From a virus: a DNA stretch of 35,580 nucleotides. The stretch lies in UHGV virus genome UHGV-2170436. The stretch is one strand, 5' to 3'. Both the position numbers and the translations under genes were made by a program. Under the pieces are notes generated by a model. The model made no database searches. It saw only the letters and a list, made by a program, of their open reading frames with translations, and was not told where the DNA came from. The stretch's first letter is position 1. Every line of letters starts with the position of its first letter. Below are positions 853 through 23,071 of this stretch, in pieces.

Positions 853-978
853 ATGAAACAATTTCATGATGGCATTTCATCTAAGACATTCAAGAAAGAA
901 TATAGCGGCTTGTGTATTGACTGGATGGATTTGATTGGCGCGGTTGTGTTTGGTCTGATTATTAGTATTAACTTTTAA
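853..978 (+). CDS. small membrane peptide candidate (41 aa, C-terminal hydrophobic helix)
   Basis: ATG at 853 preceded by GGGGTGAG Shine-Dalgarno-like sequence; MKQFHDGISSKTFKKEYSGLCIDWMDLIGAVVFGLIISINF; below ORF-track length cutoff. Confidence 0.3.
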   Translation: MKQFHDGISSKTFKKEYSGLCIDWMDLIGAVVFGLIISINF

Positions 979-1023
979 CGATATAAATATATCGTAATTC
1001 AAACAACAAGAGGAAGTTCTACT

Positions 1024-1437
1024 ATGAAAAAGATTATCGCTGGTGTTGTTCTTGCTCTGGGTTTGGTTGGTGCTGCGAATGCTAATACCTATTATGTGTG
1101 TAATTCCTACTTCGAACATAAAGGAGATGATACACAATATCTTCGTGATGGCGACCGTTATTATCATGCGCCGTCTGGCAAATACCGTGGTTTTATCGGT
1201 GTAAAGGTTCGAGTGAATGATGATAATAGTCAATTTGCTTTCAACGATCCGGTATTTGATAAAACAATCAAAAGCCCAAAACTGAAAGAAGATAAGAACG
1301 AGAAAGAAGAATATTATGGTTCCGAAGATGGTAAATCCTACATCAAATATCTGCATTCTGTAGATGGCGCGCCTATATTTGATGTTAAAAAAGGTGATAC
1401 GTCTTATTCCCTGATTAGCTGCCGTGAAATTCTTTAA
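1024..1437 (+). CDS. secreted protein of unknown function (Sec signal peptide)
   Basis: N-terminus MKKIIAGVVLALGLVGAANA is a typical signal peptide with A-x-A cleavage motif; RBS agaggaag upstream. Confidence 0.6.
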   Translation: MKKIIAGVVLALGLVGAANANTYYVCNSYFEHKGDDTQYLRDGDRYYHAPSGKYRGFIGVKVRVNDDNSQFAFNDPVFDKTIKSPKLKEDKNEKEEYYGSEDGKSYIKYLHSVDGAPIFDVKKGDTSYSLISCREIL

Positions 1438-13667: not shown

Positions 13668-14054
13668 TTAACCGCTTCTGAGTTTCTCAAGCAAAGATGG
13701 ATCAAACATGTTCAGCATTGCCGCTTTACGTTCTTCTTCTTTCTTGCGTGCAATTTCTTCCAGTTCTTCTTTAGTTTTAAAGAGTTTTTCTTCTCTAATT
13801 AATTGGAATTGGCTAGGCTTGAGTTTGCGTGCAGTTTCGCGTGTCATTCCTTGCGACGTCATATACATGGAATATTGCAACATCGCATTCTGCATATCAT
13901 GAAACGCGGGGCTTTGTGGTTCTAAGTAGGTGTCGAAAATGTATAATTTCCAAAACAGAGTGATTGGCATATTATCCATTTCATCTTTACTAAGCCCCGA
14001 TCGCATCATTTGCCGAAAATAGAAATTCAGAAGCGGGTTTACTTTACCTCGTTT
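13668..14054 (-). CDS. tail assembly chaperone extension (gpT-like, putative -1 frameshift product with the upstream gene)
   Basis: Reading frame open from 14054 to 13668, in the -1 frame relative to 14039..14347 and overlapping it by 13 nt; no RBS before the internal ATG at 14009. Confidence 0.45.
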   Translation of the reverse strand, partial: KRGKVNPLLNFYFRQMMRSGLSKDEMDNMPITLFWKLYIFDTYLEPQSPAFHDMQNAMLQYSMYMTSQGMTRETARKLKPSQFQLIREEKLFKTKEELEEIARKKEEERKAAMLNMFDPSLLEKLRSG

Positions 14055-14347
14055 TCAATTACTGTCGGATCTTGCATCAATGACGCTTGAGCAACCAAAC
14101 CGATTAATTCACTGCGGACGTTAGTATACAGTGCCTTAACTTGTTCCATAGATTCAAATACTGGTTTACCGTCTTCATCTTCAATACAACGAAGAATAGA
14201 ACGTTCATCACGGTCATCTTTATCGGTATTGAAAACATGTTCGTTAAATTCTTTTACTGACATAGGGCGAGCATAGAAAGTGAATCCACCGATGGTCAGA
14301 GATTCGCGTTTCGGAGAAAGAGCTTTCAGCATTTCATTAATATTCAT
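14039..14347 (-). CDS. tail assembly chaperone (gpG-like)
   Basis: Small acidic protein immediately upstream of the tape measure, with an overlapping -1 frame ORF. Confidence 0.55.
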   Translation of the reverse strand: MNINEMLKALSPKRESLTIGGFTFYARPMSVKEFNEHVFNTDKDDRDERSILRCIEDEDGKPVFESMEQVKALYTNVRSELIGLVAQASLMQDPTVIENEVK

Positions 14348-14911: not shown

Positions 14912-14940
14912 AAAAAAGCCCCACCATTAAGGCAGGGCTT
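14912..14940 (-). terminator. Rho-independent terminator after extended major tail protein ORF
   Basis: Minus-strand RNA AGCCCUGCC-UUAAU-GGUGGGGCU (9 bp incl. two G-U pairs) followed by UUUUUU. Confidence 0.6.
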
Positions 14941-14944
14941 AAAA

Positions 14945-15070
14945 TTAATTCTTAGCCTTGCGGCCTCGTTTTGCTGTGGCTTTCGCCGTAACTTCTTCTA
15001 CTTCTGGAATCACCACCGCTTCATGTTCCGGTAGTGGTTCCGGTTCTATTAAAGGAAGTTCTTCGTTAGT
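14945..15070 (-). other. In-frame post-TGA extension of the major tail protein gene (41 codons; putative readthrough domain)
   Basis: Translates in the same frame as 15071..15541 as TNEELPLIEPEPLPEHEAVVIPEVEEVTAKATAKRGRKAKN, ending at TAA 14945-14947. Confidence 0.5.
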
Positions 15071-15541
15071 TCATCCGGCAGTGAAGATTTCCTGTTTGAT
15101 CGGCTTTCCGTCCACCGCGAAGGTAAACTCTTTGGTTACAACTTCTTCATCGCCACCGTTCATAGCAACTTTAGAAATAAAGCCGTTGAAAGCGGTGCGA
15201 ATACCAGTCTGTTTTGCTGCATCAACATAGTATTCAATCTTAATCTGAATTCGAGTACCGTCTTCGGCAGCTTTAATGAGCTTCTCGTGCACCGCATCGC
15301 CTGGGATGTAGTTAACGGTCAGAGTCAGATCAGGAACGTTCAGTTTCCCTACCAGCTTACGGTTATACTGAGAAGAGAAGGATTTAACTTCTACAGTACC
15401 GCGCTCGATACCAGTTTCAGGAAAACCAGCACACTCTTTAATTTCTTCGTAACCGGAGTGATCGAGAGCGGTGTTAGTGGTATCAGCGTGATAGAACAGA
15501 CTTACCAGACCACCAGTAAAAATATCATTAAATTGAGACAT
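15071..15541 (-). CDS. major tail (tube) protein candidate
   Basis: Position upstream of chaperone pair and tape measure; AAGGGG RBS; ends ...EIFTAG-TGA. Confidence 0.55.
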   Translation of the reverse strand: MSQFNDIFTGGLVSLFYHADTTNTALDHSGYEEIKECAGFPETGIERGTVEVKSFSSQYNRKLVGKLNVPDLTLTVNYIPGDAVHEKLIKAAEDGTRIQIKIEYYVDAAKQTGIRTAFNGFISKVAMNGGDEEVVTKEFTFAVDGKPIKQEIFTAG

Positions 15542-19286: not shown

Positions 19287-20120
19287 TTAGTATTCGCCGA
19301 AATCGATCCGGTCAGTCTTAGCCACTGCGCCAATTTCGCTAGGTGTCGGTTTCTCGTTTGTAGAATAGACTTTAATCCATTCAGATTTACCGTTTTCCTG
19401 AATATTTCGGACGCGTAAACGCGGTGCGCCAGAAGTATTACAGGTTAATTGCCATGCGCCATGCTCATTAGCTTGAAGATGAATTAACGATGTATCAGCA
19501 CCATAAGGGTTAGTGCTAGCAGTTCCCTTGTAAGTTACGAAACGGTTTCCTGTCAGAGATTCACTATCAATAGGACCACTGAAAGGATTTACACCAGCAC
19601 CGATACCAAAATCACCCTGACGTAAGATCCGGCCTTCGGTAGCAATACCCCTTGCCAAAATCCCGCCATCTGGTTCAAGTTTAAATTCCAGTGTTACAGC
19701 TTTGTTATCTGCGCCACGGGTTTTGTGACTAGTGACATAAGCGTCATAGATGACATAGTAACCAGTGTTAGCAGCACTATAGCCAGAGTTCACAACATAG
19801 AACATACGGAAGCGTAAAGGTGTTTTATCCTCTACCGCTTTCATCAACATTGCTTGATGTTCATCGTCAAGAACACGGTTTAATGTGAGTGTTGTCGGTT
19901 CCAGTCTACGATAACCAGCAAGTTTCCCCGTAGCGTCCTGATCGTACTCTTCCAGAGTTTCTATCTCTGTGGATTCGGTTAGCGTAGGGAATGCTGCGAT
20001 GTTCTCCATAGAACTAAAGCTAGGATCGAAAAAGTCGACCTGATTGTCTATCTGGTTAGAGATCGACACTTCAACATGTGATCCAGTGAAAATATCTAAG
20101 TTATCTTGTGTAATATTCAT
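19287..20120 (-). CDS. tail protein of uncertain role
   Basis: C-terminal KVYSTNEKPTPSEIGAVAKTDRID resembles an internal segment of the long tail fibre (KMYHEGDKPTPAEIGAYTKGEID). Confidence 0.4.
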   Translation of the reverse strand: MNITQDNLDIFTGSHVEVSISNQIDNQVDFFDPSFSSMENIAAFPTLTESTEIETLEEYDQDATGKLAGYRRLEPTTLTLNRVLDDEHQAMLMKAVEDKTPLRFRMFYVVNSGYSAANTGYYVIYDAYVTSHKTRGADNKAVTLEFKLEPDGGILARGIATEGRILRQGDFGIGAGVNPFSGPIDSESLTGNRFVTYKGTASTNPYGADTSLIHLQANEHGAWQLTCNTSGAPRLRVRNIQENGKSEWIKVYSTNEKPTPSEIGAVAKTDRIDFGEY

Positions 20121-20856: not shown

Positions 20857-20882
20857 AAAAAAGCCCCGCACTAGGCAGGGCT
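20857..20882 (-). terminator. Rho-independent terminator after extended capsid ORF
   Basis: Minus-strand RNA AGCCCUGC-CUAGU-GCGGGGCU followed by UUUUUU; related in sequence to the terminator at 14912-14940. Confidence 0.6.
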
Positions 20883-20887
20883 AATTA

Positions 20888-21016
20888 TCATTCTTTAGGC
20901 TTGCGGCCTCGTTTTGCTGTGGCTTTCGCCGTAACCGTCTGGGATTCTTCTTCCGGTTTAGGAATCAGATTTTCTTCCCCCGAATCGGGGGAAGGTTCAG
21001 AAGGTTCTACAGGAGT
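20888..21016 (-). other. In-frame post-TGA extension of the capsid gene (42 codons; putative readthrough domain)
   Basis: Same frame as 21017..23071; translates TPVEPSEPSPDSGEENLIPKPEEESQTVTAKATAKRGRKPKE, ends at tandem stops TGA-TAA; contains no in-frame ATG/GTG/TTG. Confidence 0.5.
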
Positions 21017-23071
21017 TCAGTCAACTTTTTTCTGAACTACGGTCAGTGCGCTATGGTCCATAACAGCCCAATCCAGATCAGCCCATACACGGAAGTACAG
21101 GTTGCCAGCCGCGCGACCTGTGGTATCGTCGCAATCCAGTTCCAGCGATCCGAAGTCTGCAACAACAAGGGAGCTAAAGTCACCAAACAGCATGGTATCC
21201 TGAGCAACTACACCAGAGCCATAGATCGGACGGTTAACCAGTTTATCGCCTTCTACCAGGAAGCCCGGAACATTAGCTGCTTTGAGTTGCGCTGCCAGTT
21301 CAGCTTTAACAACACCACGGGTAGCAAATGCCAGATCCGCTTCGTTATAACCTTTGTCGGTCAGTTCAGCTACCAGTTTCAGGAACTCGGCATAGGTCCA
21401 ATCAATCTGTTTAACTTTGCCAGCGTCGGTCAGGATCTTAGTCAGACCATCACGAGCGTTAGTGTTAGCAGCATTGGACAGAATCGCTTTTTCCAGAGCG
21501 ATAGCACTGTGTTTCAGCATGTGCTCACCAACGATAGCGCCAATATTGGGCAGTGTGATTGCAGCCTGACGCGTTACAGGAACAATTCCGTTAAAAGTCT
21601 TGAGAGTCATCGGCTGCGCTGCAAACTTAATAGTACCTTCACCAGCGGATTGACCTTCTGCAACAAAACCGAAGTTTTCCAGATTGCTGGAAGTCAGAGA
21701 CGGCAGAGAAACAGGACCAGTTGCGTTAATGGTACGCACACCCAATTTACCCAGAATAGAACGTTCCATGATCATATCAACGAAGCAATCATGGCGGATT
21801 TCTTCACCAACTACTGGTTTCAGAGATTCCATGTTCTGGCTAGCACGCAGAGCGGACGCCGGAATGAATACGGAGTTAGAACGCTGCGCACGACCACGCG
21901 CTGCGGCTTTACGTGCTTCTTCCTGAGAATATTCAGCTTCTGCGCCAGTCAGGGCTTTACCCTCTGCGATTGCACGTACAGCTTTATTAAGATCGAAACG
22001 GGATTCCAGAGTTTTAATGGTATCGGTCATGGTAATTTTTCCTTTAACAAAAGTTTTAGATTCGGTAGTATTTAGTGCGCGTGCTTTTTCTTTAAAATTT
22101 TCAATAGTCACGGCACTATCTTTAATTGCAGCTTCAATCACGTCTTCGGAGATATTTAGATGTTTTCCGATAGCACGAATTTCGGCGGTATCTTCGCGAG
22201 AACGTTCAAACGGTTTTTCTTCGTCTTCAATCTTTTCTTCTTCGACTGGTTCGGATGTATTTTCCGTTTCGTCGTTCTCGTCTGTATCTTTATTTAGTTC
22301 TTCTGTTTCTTCCGGTTCATCTTCGGAACGTTCTTCTTTTTCTTCTGGCGTTACTTCTTGCGGTTCTTCCACATCTTCGCCACTGTCAGCACTATTTCCA
22401 GAATCGGAATCAATTTCTTCATTTTCTTGTTCCTCTTTCTCTTCTTCGGAACGTTTTTCTTCATCTTCCGGTTTAATTTCTTCGACCGGAGTATCTTTAA
22501 TTTCGTCTTCCACTTGTTCACCCTCCAAAACAATCATTTCGTTGTCTGTATTTAGAGAGCGTCCAACACCCGCATTAAATGGATCTGCGGCACACGTTAC
22601 AAGACTGCATTCGAAAGGTTGCCAGCGTGTAACATAATAGATCCCTTTGTTAAAATCGGCTTTGCCATCAAGAACGTTATAACCGACGCTAACTTGTGAA
22701 AGTGTTCCCTCTTTTACCTTCTCAAAGCATTCATTAGCCAGTTGGCCTACTTTGGAGAATTGGACAAGGCAACGACCTACACGGTCTTCGTCAATACGAG
22801 CGGAGCCAGGAACAATCTTGCCGATATGAAGATCCAGATTGTGATTAAACAGAAGACTTGCGTTAGTCTCGTTTAAAACGGATAGATCAACCGCTGATTC
22901 ATCGTGTACGAGAATCTCTTTTAATTCGACTTGCTCGCCGTCCTGATTCATGTAATAACGTGTATAAGGAGCCTCGCTTGAGAAAGCCAATTCAATAATT
23001 CGTTCGTCTTTTTCTTCGATAAAATCAGGGGTATCTACCGCAACACTACGACGGAATTGTTTTGTTGTCAT
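21017..23071 (-). CDS. prohead protease - scaffold - major capsid protein fusion
   Basis: 684 aa: N-terminal ~170 aa protease-like region, highly acidic Glu/Asp-rich linker, C-terminal ~400 aa capsid-like domain; follows the portal gene. Confidence 0.65.
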   Translation of the reverse strand: MTTKQFRRSVAVDTPDFIEEKDERIIELAFSSEAPYTRYYMNQDGEQVELKEILVHDESAVDLSVLNETNASLLFNHNLDLHIGKIVPGSARIDEDRVGRCLVQFSKVGQLANECFEKVKEGTLSQVSVGYNVLDGKADFNKGIYYVTRWQPFECSLVTCAADPFNAGVGRSLNTDNEMIVLEGEQVEDEIKDTPVEEIKPEDEEKRSEEEKEEQENEEIDSDSGNSADSGEDVEEPQEVTPEEKEERSEDEPEETEELNKDTDENDETENTSEPVEEEKIEDEEKPFERSREDTAEIRAIGKHLNISEDVIEAAIKDSAVTIENFKEKARALNTTESKTFVKGKITMTDTIKTLESRFDLNKAVRAIAEGKALTGAEAEYSQEEARKAAARGRAQRSNSVFIPASALRASQNMESLKPVVGEEIRHDCFVDMIMERSILGKLGVRTINATGPVSLPSLTSSNLENFGFVAEGQSAGEGTIKFAAQPMTLKTFNGIVPVTRQAAITLPNIGAIVGEHMLKHSAIALEKAILSNAANTNARDGLTKILTDAGKVKQIDWTYAEFLKLVAELTDKGYNEADLAFATRGVVKAELAAQLKAANVPGFLVEGDKLVNRPIYGSGVVAQDTMLFGDFSSLVVADFGSLELDCDDTTGRAAGNLYFRVWADLDWAVMDHSALTVVQKKVD

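What the first reader, a model, noticed from the sequence alone, without database searches (positions are those of the whole stretch)
20888..21019. Capsid gene ends in TGA followed by an in-frame 42-codon extension with a basic C-terminal motif
The protease-scaffold-capsid ORF stops at TGA (21019-21017), but the same frame stays open for 42 codons (TPVEPSEPSPDSGEENLIPKPEEESQTVTAKATAKRGRKPKE) to tandem stops TGA-TAA and then a terminator. The extension has no in-frame ATG, GTG or TTG, so it can only be made by UGA readthrough or recoding. It would give a minor C-terminally extended capsid form with a Pro/Glu-rich linker and an AT-hook-like KRGRK tail.
Basis: seen in the sequence. Interest (0 to 1): 0.85.

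Follow-up and report, generated by a model that had tools for sequence, protein, structure and literature searches.

The report
Leaky-stop tails on phage head and tail
In this E. coli prophage the two most abundant virion proteins, the head shell protein and the tail tube protein, both end in a leaky UGA stop. Each stop is followed by a conserved in-frame 25-44 codon tail with an acidic stalk and a basic tip, so a few percent of copies are probably made longer, a trick not described before for tailed DNA phages as far as I could find.

Summary
The fused protease-scaffold-capsid ORF (23071-21020, minus strand) stops at TGA 21019-21017. Frame 0 then stays open for 42 codons to TGA-TAA, followed by an intrinsic terminator.

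On its own this is not beyond chance: 6 of 29 genes in the window have at least 30 open codons after their stop. Comparison makes it significant.
- In 46 related capsid loci (29 distinct extension DNAs, 16 different capsid C-termini) the stop is always TGA followed by A.
- The extension is always in frame despite five different spacer lengths, and it always ends in a Lys/Arg-rich tip.
- Relatives without an extension use TAA-T and go straight into the terminator.

The tail tube gene (15541-15074) ends TGA-A and continues in frame for 41 codons to the same TAKATAKRGRK motif. This is conserved in 20 loci. These are the only two TGA stops among the 21 ORFs from terminase to tail tip.

Best explanation: programmed UGA read-through, probably by tRNA-Trp at about 1-4%, displays a few flexible cationic-tipped tails on head and tail.

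Caveats: there is no protein evidence, substitutions look near-neutral, and the AT-hook label fails. I rate it a new variant of a known kind.

The parts
21020..23071 (-). Fused prohead protease - acidic scaffold linker - HK97-type major capsid protein ORF (684 aa)
   Evidence: Pfam Peptidase_S78 (7.4e-10) and Phage_capsid (4.2e-14). PHROG 617 major head protein 1.5e-68. Annotated as phage major capsid protein in RefSeq.
21017..21019 (-). Leaky stop of the capsid gene: TGA followed by A (UGA-A)
   Evidence: TGA followed by A in 46 of 46 related capsid loci with an extension, across 13 different preceding codon pairs. Relatives without an extension use TAA-T.
20891..21016 (-). In-frame 42-codon capsid extension: acidic Pro/Glu-rich stalk (TPVEPSEPSPDSGEENLIPKPEEES) followed by QTVTAKATA and the basic tip KRGRKPKE
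   Evidence: Relatives have 25-44 codons. The distance from TGA to the core motif is 39, 48, 60, 63 or 87 nt, always 0 mod 3. The other two frames are always closed.
20885..20890 (-). Tandem stops TGA-TAA that end the extension
   Evidence: Most relatives have TAA-TAA or TGA-TAA. Several have a single TAA followed by TTA.
20862..20882 (-). Intrinsic terminator (8-bp stem, T-run) two bases after the tandem stops
20974..20994 (-). G+C-rich hairpin CUUCCCCCG-AUU-CGGGGGAAG, starting 25 nt after the U of UGA. Its role is unknown.
   Evidence: A hairpin of 8-12 bp starts 13 or 25 nt after the UGA in all 17 capsid variants folded. Against synonymous recodings, z ranges from -0.6 to -3.2. Two compensatory pairs occur in the short-variant hairpin and none in the long-variant hairpin.
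15074..15541 (-). Major tail tube protein ORF (156 aa, lambda gpV-type tube domain)
   Evidence: PHROG 158 major tail protein 7e-22. Pfam Phage_TTP_11 29.0 bits against a 28.4-bit cut-off. The AlphaFold model (pLDDT 76) matches the lambda gpV tube, 7t2e_A, E = 6e-7, TM 0.62.
15071..15073 (-). Second leaky stop: TGA followed by A at the end of the tail tube gene
   Evidence: TGA followed by A in 20 of 20 related tail tube loci.
14948..15070 (-). In-frame 41-codon tail tube extension TNEELPLIEPEPLPEHEAVVIPEVEEVTAKATAKRGRKAKN
   Evidence: Relatives have 36, 39, 40 or 41 codons, always in frame. The Edwardsiella tarda homologue WP_098142578.1 continues without any stop into ...APLATYHMNVIPEAVAAKEK, and BLASTP aligns it across the stop position.
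14939..14947 (-). TAA-TTT-TAA: terminal stop plus a second in-frame stop
14912..14938 (-). Intrinsic terminator after the tail tube extension (GCCCTGCC-TTAATG-GTGGGGC followed by T6)
   Evidence: Read from the sequence. The same terminator type follows the capsid extension.
20900..20935 (-). 36-nt block GTTACGGCGAAAGCCACAGCAAAACGAGGCCGCAAG (encodes VTAKATAKRGRK). It is identical to 14957-14992.
14957..14992 (-). Second copy of the same 36-nt block, in the tail tube extension

Best explanation
Both genes carry a programmed, low-level read-through of a UGA stop.

Proposed mechanism, step by step:
1. Most ribosomes terminate at UGA-A and make the normal capsid or tail tube subunit.
2. A small fraction, probably 1-4%, decode UGA with a near-cognate tRNA, most likely tRNA-Trp.
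3. These ribosomes add 41-42 further residues: an acidic, proline-rich and presumably unstructured stalk, ending in a Lys/Arg-rich tip.
4. Strong stops just before the terminator then end translation: TGA-TAA after the capsid extension, and TAA with a second in-frame TAA two codons later after the tail tube extension.
5. The long forms co-assemble with the short forms. Each virion would then carry a handful of flexible, cationic-tipped tails on the outside of head and tail tube.
6. The tips plausibly give weak electrostatic adhesion to polyanions such as LPS, capsule, mucin or extracellular DNA.

What is shown: the conserved TGA-A, the conserved reading frame, the conserved charge pattern, the presence on both genes, and the link between TGA and the presence of an extension.

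What is inferred: that read-through happens, its level, the amino acid inserted, surface exposure, and the function.
For: Conservation
- 46 capsid loci (29 distinct extension DNAs, 16 different capsid C-termini, 13 different last-two-codon contexts) and 20 tail tube loci (13 distinct DNAs) were examined. They come from E. coli, Salmonella, IMG/VR and metagenomes. All have TGA followed by A and an in-frame extension. No exception turned up among the core-motif matches in the fetched loci.
- Frame 0 survives at least 7 length changes. TGA-to-core distances are 39/48/60/63/87 nt for the capsid and 69/78/81/84 nt for the tail tube, all 0 mod 3. Frames +1 and +2 always contain stops.

Link between stop type and extension
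- Relatives whose capsid ends in a basic residue use TAA-T and have no extension (L025, L028-L031).
- In one such Salmonella prophage, all 15 genes from terminase to tape measure, including capsid and tail tube, end in TAA.
- An acidic capsid C-terminus correctly predicted TGA plus extension in 4 of 4 new loci.
- In the window, 25 of 29 ORFs end in TAA. Among the 21 ORFs from terminase to tail tip, only the capsid and tail tube genes use TGA.

Peptide properties
- Three unrelated tip sequences (KRGRKPKE, KKQRKTKE, KKVGRPPKAK) are all basic in frame 0.
- The starts of the capsid type-2 and tail tube extensions ([TN]NEELP) differ mainly by synonymous changes: Leu is CTT, TTG, TTA or CTG, and Pro is CCT, CCC or CCG.
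- An Edwardsiella tail tube homologue carries a related extension with no stop codon.

Plausibility and exclusions
- UGA followed by A is a known leaky context read by tRNA-Trp in E. coli, whereas UAA-U is the strongest signal (PMC5289835). UGA read-through is about 2-4% in E. coli K-12 reporters (PMC10570021).
- The window has no tRNA gene and no Rfam match.
- The tail tube domain matches the tube domain of lambda gpV. Its C-terminus is where gpV carries its outward-facing Ig-like domain (the location of that domain is from established knowledge).
Against: - There is no protein-level evidence.
- Substitutions in homologous blocks give 16 synonymous to 32 non-synonymous minimum changes. This is not distinguishable from neutral evolution (p = 0.12).
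- The core GCGAAAGCCACA shows no synonymous change in 34 sequences and can form a GGC-GAAA-GCC mini-hairpin. Some conservation may therefore act on the nucleic acid rather than the peptide.
- An open frame of about 40 codons after a stop is common in this window.
- The quoted read-through rates are for K-12, whose RF2 is unusually weak (from memory). Wild E. coli may read through less.
- Exterior exposure of the capsid C-terminus is argued only by analogy with T7 10B and the P22 coat protein. It was not tested here.
Confidence: 0.75

Rival explanations
1. The roughly 130-nt stretch after both genes is a non-coding 3'-UTR RNA or DNA element. It would consist of the hairpin, the GNRA mini-hairpin and the terminator, and might stabilise or regulate the two most highly expressed late messages. 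On this view the open frame is a by-product.
For: - The syn:nonsyn ratio is near neutral (16:32).
- A 36-nt block is identical at the two sites, and the core has no synonymous variation.
- Stable hairpins follow the UGA in all variants, with two compensatory pairs in the short-variant hairpin.
- The region is exchanged as a mosaic module whose breakpoints lie at the stop codon.
Against: - A non-coding element has no reason to keep frame 0 open across nine spacer lengths in 66 of 66 loci while the other frames are closed.
- It has no reason to require TGA-A upstream in a genome that otherwise uses TAA.
- It has no reason to replace the tip with three unrelated sequences that are all Lys/Arg-rich in that frame.
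- A homologous extension is fused without any stop in the Edwardsiella protein.
- Hairpin position (13 or 25 nt) and sequence are not conserved between variants.
Confidence: 0.13
2. The extension is a separate small peptide. It would be made by internal initiation or by termination-reinitiation, not by read-through.
For: Many relatives have an in-frame TTG (PD-L-GEE). One database gene call, P0121 (33 aa), starts there.
Against: - The window has TCG at that codon, and other relatives have AAT, GTG, TTA or CTG. The short variants lack the segment altogether.
- No Shine-Dalgarno sequence precedes it, and the TTG sits in the hairpin loop.
- A separate ORF would not need the 13-29 codons between the TGA and that point to stay open and in frame with the upstream gene.
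Confidence: 0.04
3. UGA is recoded as selenocysteine, directed by the downstream hairpin acting as a SECIS element.
For: A stable hairpin lies downstream of the UGA in all variants.
Against: - No Rfam family matches the region, even at E up to 10.
- The hairpins differ in sequence, loop (AUU or GAUUU, GAAA, or 11 nt) and distance (13 or 25 nt).
- The E. coli SECIS needs a fixed spacing and a specific loop (from memory).
- A selenocysteine in a disordered linker has no obvious use.
Confidence: 0.01
4. Ribosomes that read through serve mainly to place a terminating ribosome on the 5' arm of the terminator. The terminal stops lie 2-5 nt before that stem. This would tune transcription into the downstream genes, and the peptide itself would be irrelevant.
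For: The tandem stops sit immediately before the terminator stem at both sites, whereas in TAA-type relatives the stop is about 18 nt upstream of the stem.
Against: - Only a few percent of ribosomes would read through, so the effect on termination would be small.
- This does not explain the conserved acidic-stalk and basic-tip composition, or the constitutive short basic C-termini of the TAA-type relatives.
Confidence: 0.05

Closest known systems
Coliphage Qbeta A1 (read-through) protein
   Same: The major coat gene ends in UGA followed by A. A few percent of ribosomes in E. coli insert Trp and continue in frame, giving a minor C-terminally extended coat protein that is built into the virion. 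The Qbeta details are from established knowledge. The UGA-A/tRNA-Trp point is cited in PMC5289835.
   Different: Qbeta is an ssRNA levivirus with an unrelated coat fold. Its extension is a folded domain of about 196 aa needed for infectivity. Here the host is a dsDNA siphovirus-type prophage, the extension is 25-44 aa and probably disordered, and the same device is also used on the tail tube protein.
Listeria phages PSA, A118 and A500: frameshift-extended capsid (Cps) and tail (Tsh) proteins
   Same: Both the major capsid gene and the major tail gene of one phage yield a short and a C-terminally longer product by recoding at the 3' end (PMC5009743).
   Different: Those phages use +1 or -1 ribosomal frameshifting on slippery or CCC sites, into another frame. 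Here the extension is in the zero frame and no shift site is needed, only a leaky stop.
T7/T3 gene 10A/10B and Lactobacillus phage A2 gp5A/5B
   Same: A minor, C-terminally extended form of an HK97-fold major capsid protein co-assembles with the major form (PMC5009743). The T7 10B C-terminus lies on the capsid exterior, which is the basis of T7 display (from memory).
   Different: The mechanism there is -1 frameshifting. The T3 and A2 extensions are Ig-like domains, and the tail tube is not involved.
Lambda gpV C-terminal Ig-like domain and SPP1 gp17.1*
   Same: These are decorations attached to the C-terminus of a lambda-type tail tube domain and facing outward. The window's tube domain aligns only with the tube part of the 245-aa gpV (7t4f_A: TM 0.59 normalised to the query, 0.39 normalised to the target).
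   Different: The gpV domain is folded and present on every subunit. The SPP1 domain is added by a +1 frameshift. Here the appendage is a short charged tail added by read-through.
AT-hook DNA-binding motif (Pfam PF02178)
   Same: A short Lys/Arg-rich peptide with Gly-Arg-Pro in one variant (KKVGRPPKAK).
   Different: The window's tips (KRGRKPKE, KRGRKAKN) lack the RGRP core and give no Pfam hit. The best variant is below the cut-off (14.2 against 17.4 bits). The KKQRKTKE variant has no GRP at all.

Membership tests
Programmed stop-codon read-through (Qbeta A1 type) | Leaky stop context (UGA, with A at position +4) that is conserved even though a change to UAA would be silent for termination | tested here: met
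   TGA followed by A in 66 of 66 loci, with 13 (capsid) and 6 (tail tube) different preceding codon pairs. Extension-less relatives use TAA-T. The rest of the window uses TAA in 25 of 29 ORFs.
Programmed stop-codon read-through (Qbeta A1 type) | Downstream ORF kept in frame with the upstream gene across insertions and deletions, with the other frames closed | tested here: met
   There are nine spacer lengths, all 0 mod 3. Frames +1 and +2 contain 1-6 stops in every variant.
Programmed stop-codon read-through (Qbeta A1 type) | Protein-coding substitution signature in the extension (excess of synonymous change) | tested here: inconclusive
   16 synonymous to 32 non-synonymous minimum changes, p = 0.12 against neutral. 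Pooled pN/pS is 0.81. Only the first six codons show mostly synonymous variation.
Programmed stop-codon read-through (Qbeta A1 type) | No independent start codon for the extension | tested here: met
   The window has no in-frame ATG, GTG or TTG. The TTG seen in many relatives is not conserved.
Programmed stop-codon read-through (Qbeta A1 type) | The extended protein is actually made and incorporated into virions | not testable with these tools
   This needs mass spectrometry, western blot or a reporter assay. P0122 (198 aa, W at the stop position) may be a TGG variant or a code-4 gene call. Its DNA could not be fetched.
Frameshift-derived structural protein extensions (T7 10B, Listeria PSA) | Extension encoded in the +1 or -1 frame and reached through a slippery site | tested here: not met
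   The extension is in frame 0, and frames +1 and +2 are closed.
Bacterial selenocysteine recoding | SECIS hairpin of conserved sequence at a fixed short distance after the UGA | tested here: not met
   No Rfam match. Hairpins start at 13 or 25 nt and have different loops and stems.
AT-hook (PF02178) | R-G-R-P core flanked by basic residues, scoring above the Pfam gathering score | tested here: not met
   There is no hit for either of the window's extensions. The KKVGRPPKAK variant scores 14.2 bits against a 17.4-bit cut-off.
HK97-type major capsid protein fused to an S78 prohead protease | Peptidase_S78 and Phage_capsid domains in one ORF | tested here: met
   both above the Pfam cut-offs. 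PHROG 617 and 4523. The capsid domain matches PDB 8gta_A at 3.5e-12.
Lambda-like tail tube protein | Tube-domain sequence and fold | tested here: met
   Pfam Phage_TTP_11 29.0 bits against a 28.4-bit cut-off. PHROG 158 7e-22. Foldseek matches to lambda gpV 7t2e/8k36 at E = 6e-7, TM 0.61-0.62.

The most novel reading that the evidence does not exclude
The UGA-A stops on the capsid and tail tube genes form a dedicated system that sets how many cationic-tipped disordered tethers each virion carries. Because UGA read-through in E. coli varies with temperature, cAMP and tRNA-Trp level (PMC10570021), the host's physiological state at the time of lysis would be written into the surface stickiness of the progeny phage. 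If so, this is a new class of virion decoration with a new, tunable way of dosing it.
Probability: 0.25. Interest if true: 0.85.

Novelty: new variant of a known kind. Interest (0 to 1): 0.72.

Why it matters
Recoding at the 3' end of phage structural genes is known as frameshifting in T7, A2 and the Listeria phages. Stop-codon read-through is known for the RNA phage Qbeta. I found no report of conserved UGA read-through extending the major capsid and tail tube proteins of a tailed dsDNA phage, and a long review of recoding lists only frameshift cases for these genes.

If confirmed, several things follow:
- It adds a second recoding route to sub-stoichiometric virion decoration.
- Genome annotation pipelines miss these products. 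All RefSeq records inspected leave both extensions unannotated.
- It offers a natural, genetically tractable read-through signal in E. coli and Salmonella.
- It raises a testable question about why these phages want a few basic-tipped tails on the virion surface. Sister phages instead put a short basic end (..RVKK, ..GRSK, ..MGRK) on every subunit.

Tried and rejected
- **Phage GenBank collection.** Megablast and tblastn of the region found no close relative. The best capsid match was 37% identical, and the extension peptide gave no hit.
- **Species-representative genomes.** Two related-loci scans of genome contigs found nothing.
- **IMG/VR.** The protein-pattern scan gave only 3 close loci. 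A 15-mer DNA scan returned mostly chance hits, but it included 9 true loci and led to the tail tube site.
- **Extension profile against 5.8 billion proteins.** This found only a 33-aa TTG-started gene call. No capsid with a sense codon in place of the stop turned up.
- **Phage-encoded suppressor tRNA.** Rejected, because the window has no tRNA gene.
- **SECIS or another known RNA family.** Rejected.
- **dN/dS.** It did not give a coding signal.
- **Hairpin.** Tests against synonymous recodings and covariation tests are suggestive at best.
- **Escherichia phage DCP80.** This is the closest deposited phage record. It has TAA stops on both genes, no read-through extension, and only a short constitutive acidic tail on its tube protein.
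- **Recent nonsense mutation or assembly error.** Rejected, because the same arrangement occurs in dozens of independent genomes.
- **Stop-hopping.** Considered and rejected, because the codons before the stop (GAC, GAA, GGA) have no conserved matching landing codon.
Full report
**What is in the window**

The window is a siphovirus-type prophage of about 36 kb, integrated in codB of E. coli and carrying a serine recombinase. For the capsid region it is 100% identical to strains 39EVA and HCP5S3_I4. For the tail tube region it is 100% identical to HCP5S3_I4 only.

On the minus strand a 684-aa ORF (23071-21020) combines a Peptidase_S78 prohead protease, a Glu-rich linker and a Phage_capsid domain. 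It stops at TGA 21019-21017. The same frame then reads TPVEPSEPSPDSGEENLIPKPEEESQTVTAKATAKRGRKPKE (42 codons, 21016-20891), followed by TGA-TAA (20890-20885) and an intrinsic terminator at 20882-20862. The extension has no in-frame ATG, GTG or TTG.

**Is it more than chance?**

Taken alone, no. In one search, 6 of 29 ORFs in the window have 30 or more stop-free codons after their stop that are not a following gene. The case rests on comparison with relatives.

**Comparative evidence for the capsid gene**

The capsid protein has hundreds of prophage relatives in E. coli and Salmonella. I read the DNA after the stop in loci from complete E. coli genomes, NCBI and Logan assemblies, IMG/VR and metagenomes.

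Forty-six capsid loci carry an extension. They include 29 distinct extension DNAs and 16 different capsid C-termini (..QKKVD, ..QKKGE, ..LHISAE, ..LHISE, ..LKIAE, ..EKKAE, ..TKKAGE, ..VIKAGE, ..VIQKGE and others). In all 46:
- the stop is TGA and the next base is A;
- the extension is in frame;
- the extension ends in a Lys/Arg-rich tip just before a terminal stop, usually followed by a second stop, and then a terminator.

Extension length is 25, 27, 28, 32, 33, 35, 42, 43 or 44 codons. The distance from TGA to the conserved core GCGAAAGCCACA is 39, 48, 60, 63 or 87 nt, always a multiple of three. Frames +1 and +2 always contain stops.

The extension is modular. It has two alternative starts (TPVEPSEPSPDLGEE or NNEELPEEIPVV), an optional ENLIPEPEEES segment, the core QTV[TK]AKAT(A), and three unrelated tips (KRGRKPKE, KKQRKTKE, KK[VA]GRPPKAK). 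All three tips are basic in this frame.

Relatives without an extension (L025, L028-L031) end in a short basic tail (..ARGK..RVKK..GRSK..RAKK). They use TAA-T and run straight into the terminator. From the last residue alone, acidic versus Lys, I predicted TGA plus extension for four further proteins, and all four predictions held. A scan for filtered-out or out-of-frame cases among all fetched loci found none.

**A second site in the same window**

A DNA-pattern search for the core motif returned two IMG/VR loci in which the motif follows a different, 156-aa protein. That protein is the window's own major tail tube protein (15541-15074). The evidence for this identity is:
- PHROG 158 at 7e-22;
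- Pfam Phage_TTP_11 above its cut-off;
- an AlphaFold model that matches the lambda gpV tube domain.

This gene ends in TGA followed by A (15073-15071). It continues in frame for 41 codons, TNEELPLIEPEPLPEHEAVVIPEVEEVTAKATAKRGRKAKN (15070-14948). Then come TAA-TTT-TAA and a terminator. A 36-nt block encoding VTAKATAKRGRK is identical at the two sites.

In 20 related tail tube loci (13 distinct DNAs; 36, 39, 40 or 41 codons) the stop is again always TGA-A and the frame is kept. In the window 25 of 29 ORFs end in TAA. Among the 21 ORFs from terminase to tail tip, only these two, the most abundant virion proteins, use TGA.

In a Salmonella relative of the TAA type, all 15 structural genes end in TAA. 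There the capsid (..TRVKK) and the tube protein (..PLMGRK) each carry a short constitutive basic end instead. The two states therefore co-vary across both genes.

**Further support**

An Edwardsiella tarda tube protein (WP_098142578.1, 175 aa) has no stop at this position. It continues into APLATYHMNVIPEAVAAKEK, and BLASTP aligns it with the window's protein across the stop as far as ...AVVIPE. A 198-aa ENA protein (P0122) has W exactly at the stop position followed by the full extension. This may be a real TGG variant or a gene caller using code 4, and I could not fetch its DNA.

**Mechanism**

UGA is the leakiest stop in E. coli. [quoted passage not shown] Reporter read-through of UGA in K-12 is about 2% at 37 °C and 4% at 25 °C, and it depends on the competition between tRNA-Trp and RF2 (PMC10570021).

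The window has no tRNA gene and no Rfam or SECIS-like match. The simplest mechanism is therefore near-cognate decoding of UGA-A at the percent level.

The resulting copy numbers are inferred, not measured. A T=7 head of about 415 subunits would carry on the order of 4-15 long subunits. A tube of about 180 subunits, estimated from the 809-aa tape measure protein, would carry a few.

The tube domain's C-terminus corresponds to the point where lambda gpV continues into its outward-facing Ig-like domain (plus established knowledge). The C-termini of the T7 10B and P22 coat proteins are exterior (from memory). The tails are therefore probably displayed on the outside of both head and tail.

Their design is an acidic, proline-rich stalk with a cationic tip. 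Together with the short basic ends of the TAA-type relatives, this suggests weak electrostatic adhesion to polyanions. This functional step is speculative.

**Caveats and rivals**

- Substitutions in homologous blocks (16 synonymous to 32 non-synonymous, p = 0.12; pooled pN/pS 0.81) do not show purifying selection on the peptide.
- The core is invariant at the nucleotide level and can form a GGC-GAAA-GCC mini-hairpin.
- Every capsid variant has an 8-12 bp hairpin starting 13 or 25 nt after the UGA.
  - Its stability exceeds synonymous recodings only modestly (z from -0.6 to -3.2).
  - Two compensatory pairs occur in the short-variant hairpin and none in the long-variant one.
- The tail tube extension also folds, but into a different structure.

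A structured non-coding 3' element is therefore the main rival, at about 0.13. It does not explain the frame conservation, the exclusive use of TGA-A, or the three unrelated basic tips. Internal initiation, selenocysteine insertion and a terminator-occlusion role are less likely, for the reasons given under the rival explanations.

**AT-hook**

The label fails as family membership. The window's tips give no Pfam hit. The KKVGRPPKAK variant is below the cut-off (14.2 against 17.4 bits), and the KKQRKTKE variant lacks Gly-Arg-Pro altogether.

**Comparison with what is known**

The closest analogues are:
- Qbeta A1, which uses the same UGA-A read-through of a coat gene but in an RNA phage, with a folded essential domain;
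- Listeria phages PSA, A118 and A500, where both the capsid and tail genes give longer products, but by frameshifting;
- T7/T3 10B and phage A2 gp5B (PMC5009743).

Four literature searches found no report of UGA read-through extensions on the capsid or tail tube proteins of tailed phages. RefSeq leaves both extensions unannotated.

I classify this as a new variant of a known kind. It is well supported by comparative genomics and unverified at the protein level.

Noticed in passing
window 14948-15073 (minus strand): The tail tube gene carries the same TGA-A stop plus an in-frame acidic-stalk, basic-tip extension as the capsid gene. The finding as given did not mention it.
   Followed up: yes
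window 20974-20994; relatives L010, L011, L027, L032, L034 and others: A G+C-rich hairpin starts 13 nt (short variants) or 25 nt (long variants) after the UGA in every capsid variant. A 9-nt insertion in L032 falls in the loop and keeps the stem. Whether the hairpin stimulates read-through, stabilises the mRNA or is incidental is unknown.
   Followed up: partly
window 20900-20935 and 14957-14992: A 36-nt block is identical at the two sites. It contains GGC-GAAA-GCC, a possible GNRA mini-hairpin, and shows no synonymous variation in 34 sequences. This suggests gene conversion between the sites, or a constraint acting on the nucleic acid.
   Followed up: partly
L025, L028-L031, L164; proteins P0006-P0120 and P0132-P0142: Sister prophages, mostly in Salmonella, have no read-through extension. 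Every capsid and tail tube subunit instead ends in a short basic tail (..RVKK, ..GRSK, ..ARGK; ..GSRK, ..MGRK) followed by TAA-T.
   Followed up: partly
one search hit table (query positions 478-491; the TGA is at 482-484): Many E. coli prophages match the window at 90-94% starting exactly at the capsid stop codon, while the capsid gene itself is too divergent for megablast. A mosaic recombination boundary therefore sits at the TGA.
   Followed up: no
L025 3695-4735, L032 3786-4823, L010 4314-5358: In some relatives an extra gene is inserted in the structural operon. A DUF723/CapR-like gene lies between the capsid terminator and the next head gene in L025 and L032. In L010 a GIY-YIG nuclease gene follows the 277-aa gene, where the tail fibre gene lies in the other loci. 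These are probably homing-endonuclease-type insertions.
   Followed up: no
window 19287-20120 (minus strand): The 277-aa protein upstream of the tail fibre gene also matches the major tail protein family PHROG 158 over residues 10-154. The prophage therefore has a second tube-like protein.
   Followed up: no
window 877-1356 (minus strand): This is one of only four TGA stops in the window and is also followed by A, with 30 open codons after it (NAIMKLFHCSPHT...). The sequence looks random and lacks the motif. Its conservation was not checked.
   Followed up: no
P0122 (ENA metagenome, 842-bp contig): A 198-aa tail tube protein has W at the stop position, fused to the full extension. It is either a natural TGG variant or a TGA translated with code 4 by the gene caller.
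   Followed up: partly
L163, L165 (PQ671644.1, Escherichia phage DCP80): A record classified as Straboviridae (141 kb) contains a head and tail module of this siphovirus type: capsid 37% identical, tube protein 45% identical. This is unexpected for a T4-like phage and may indicate a chimeric assembly.
   Followed up: no
window 13668-14347 (minus strand): A tail assembly chaperone (PHROG 344, 102 aa) is followed by a 113-aa ORF. This is the usual place for the conserved G/GT -1 frameshift. It was not examined.
   Followed up: no
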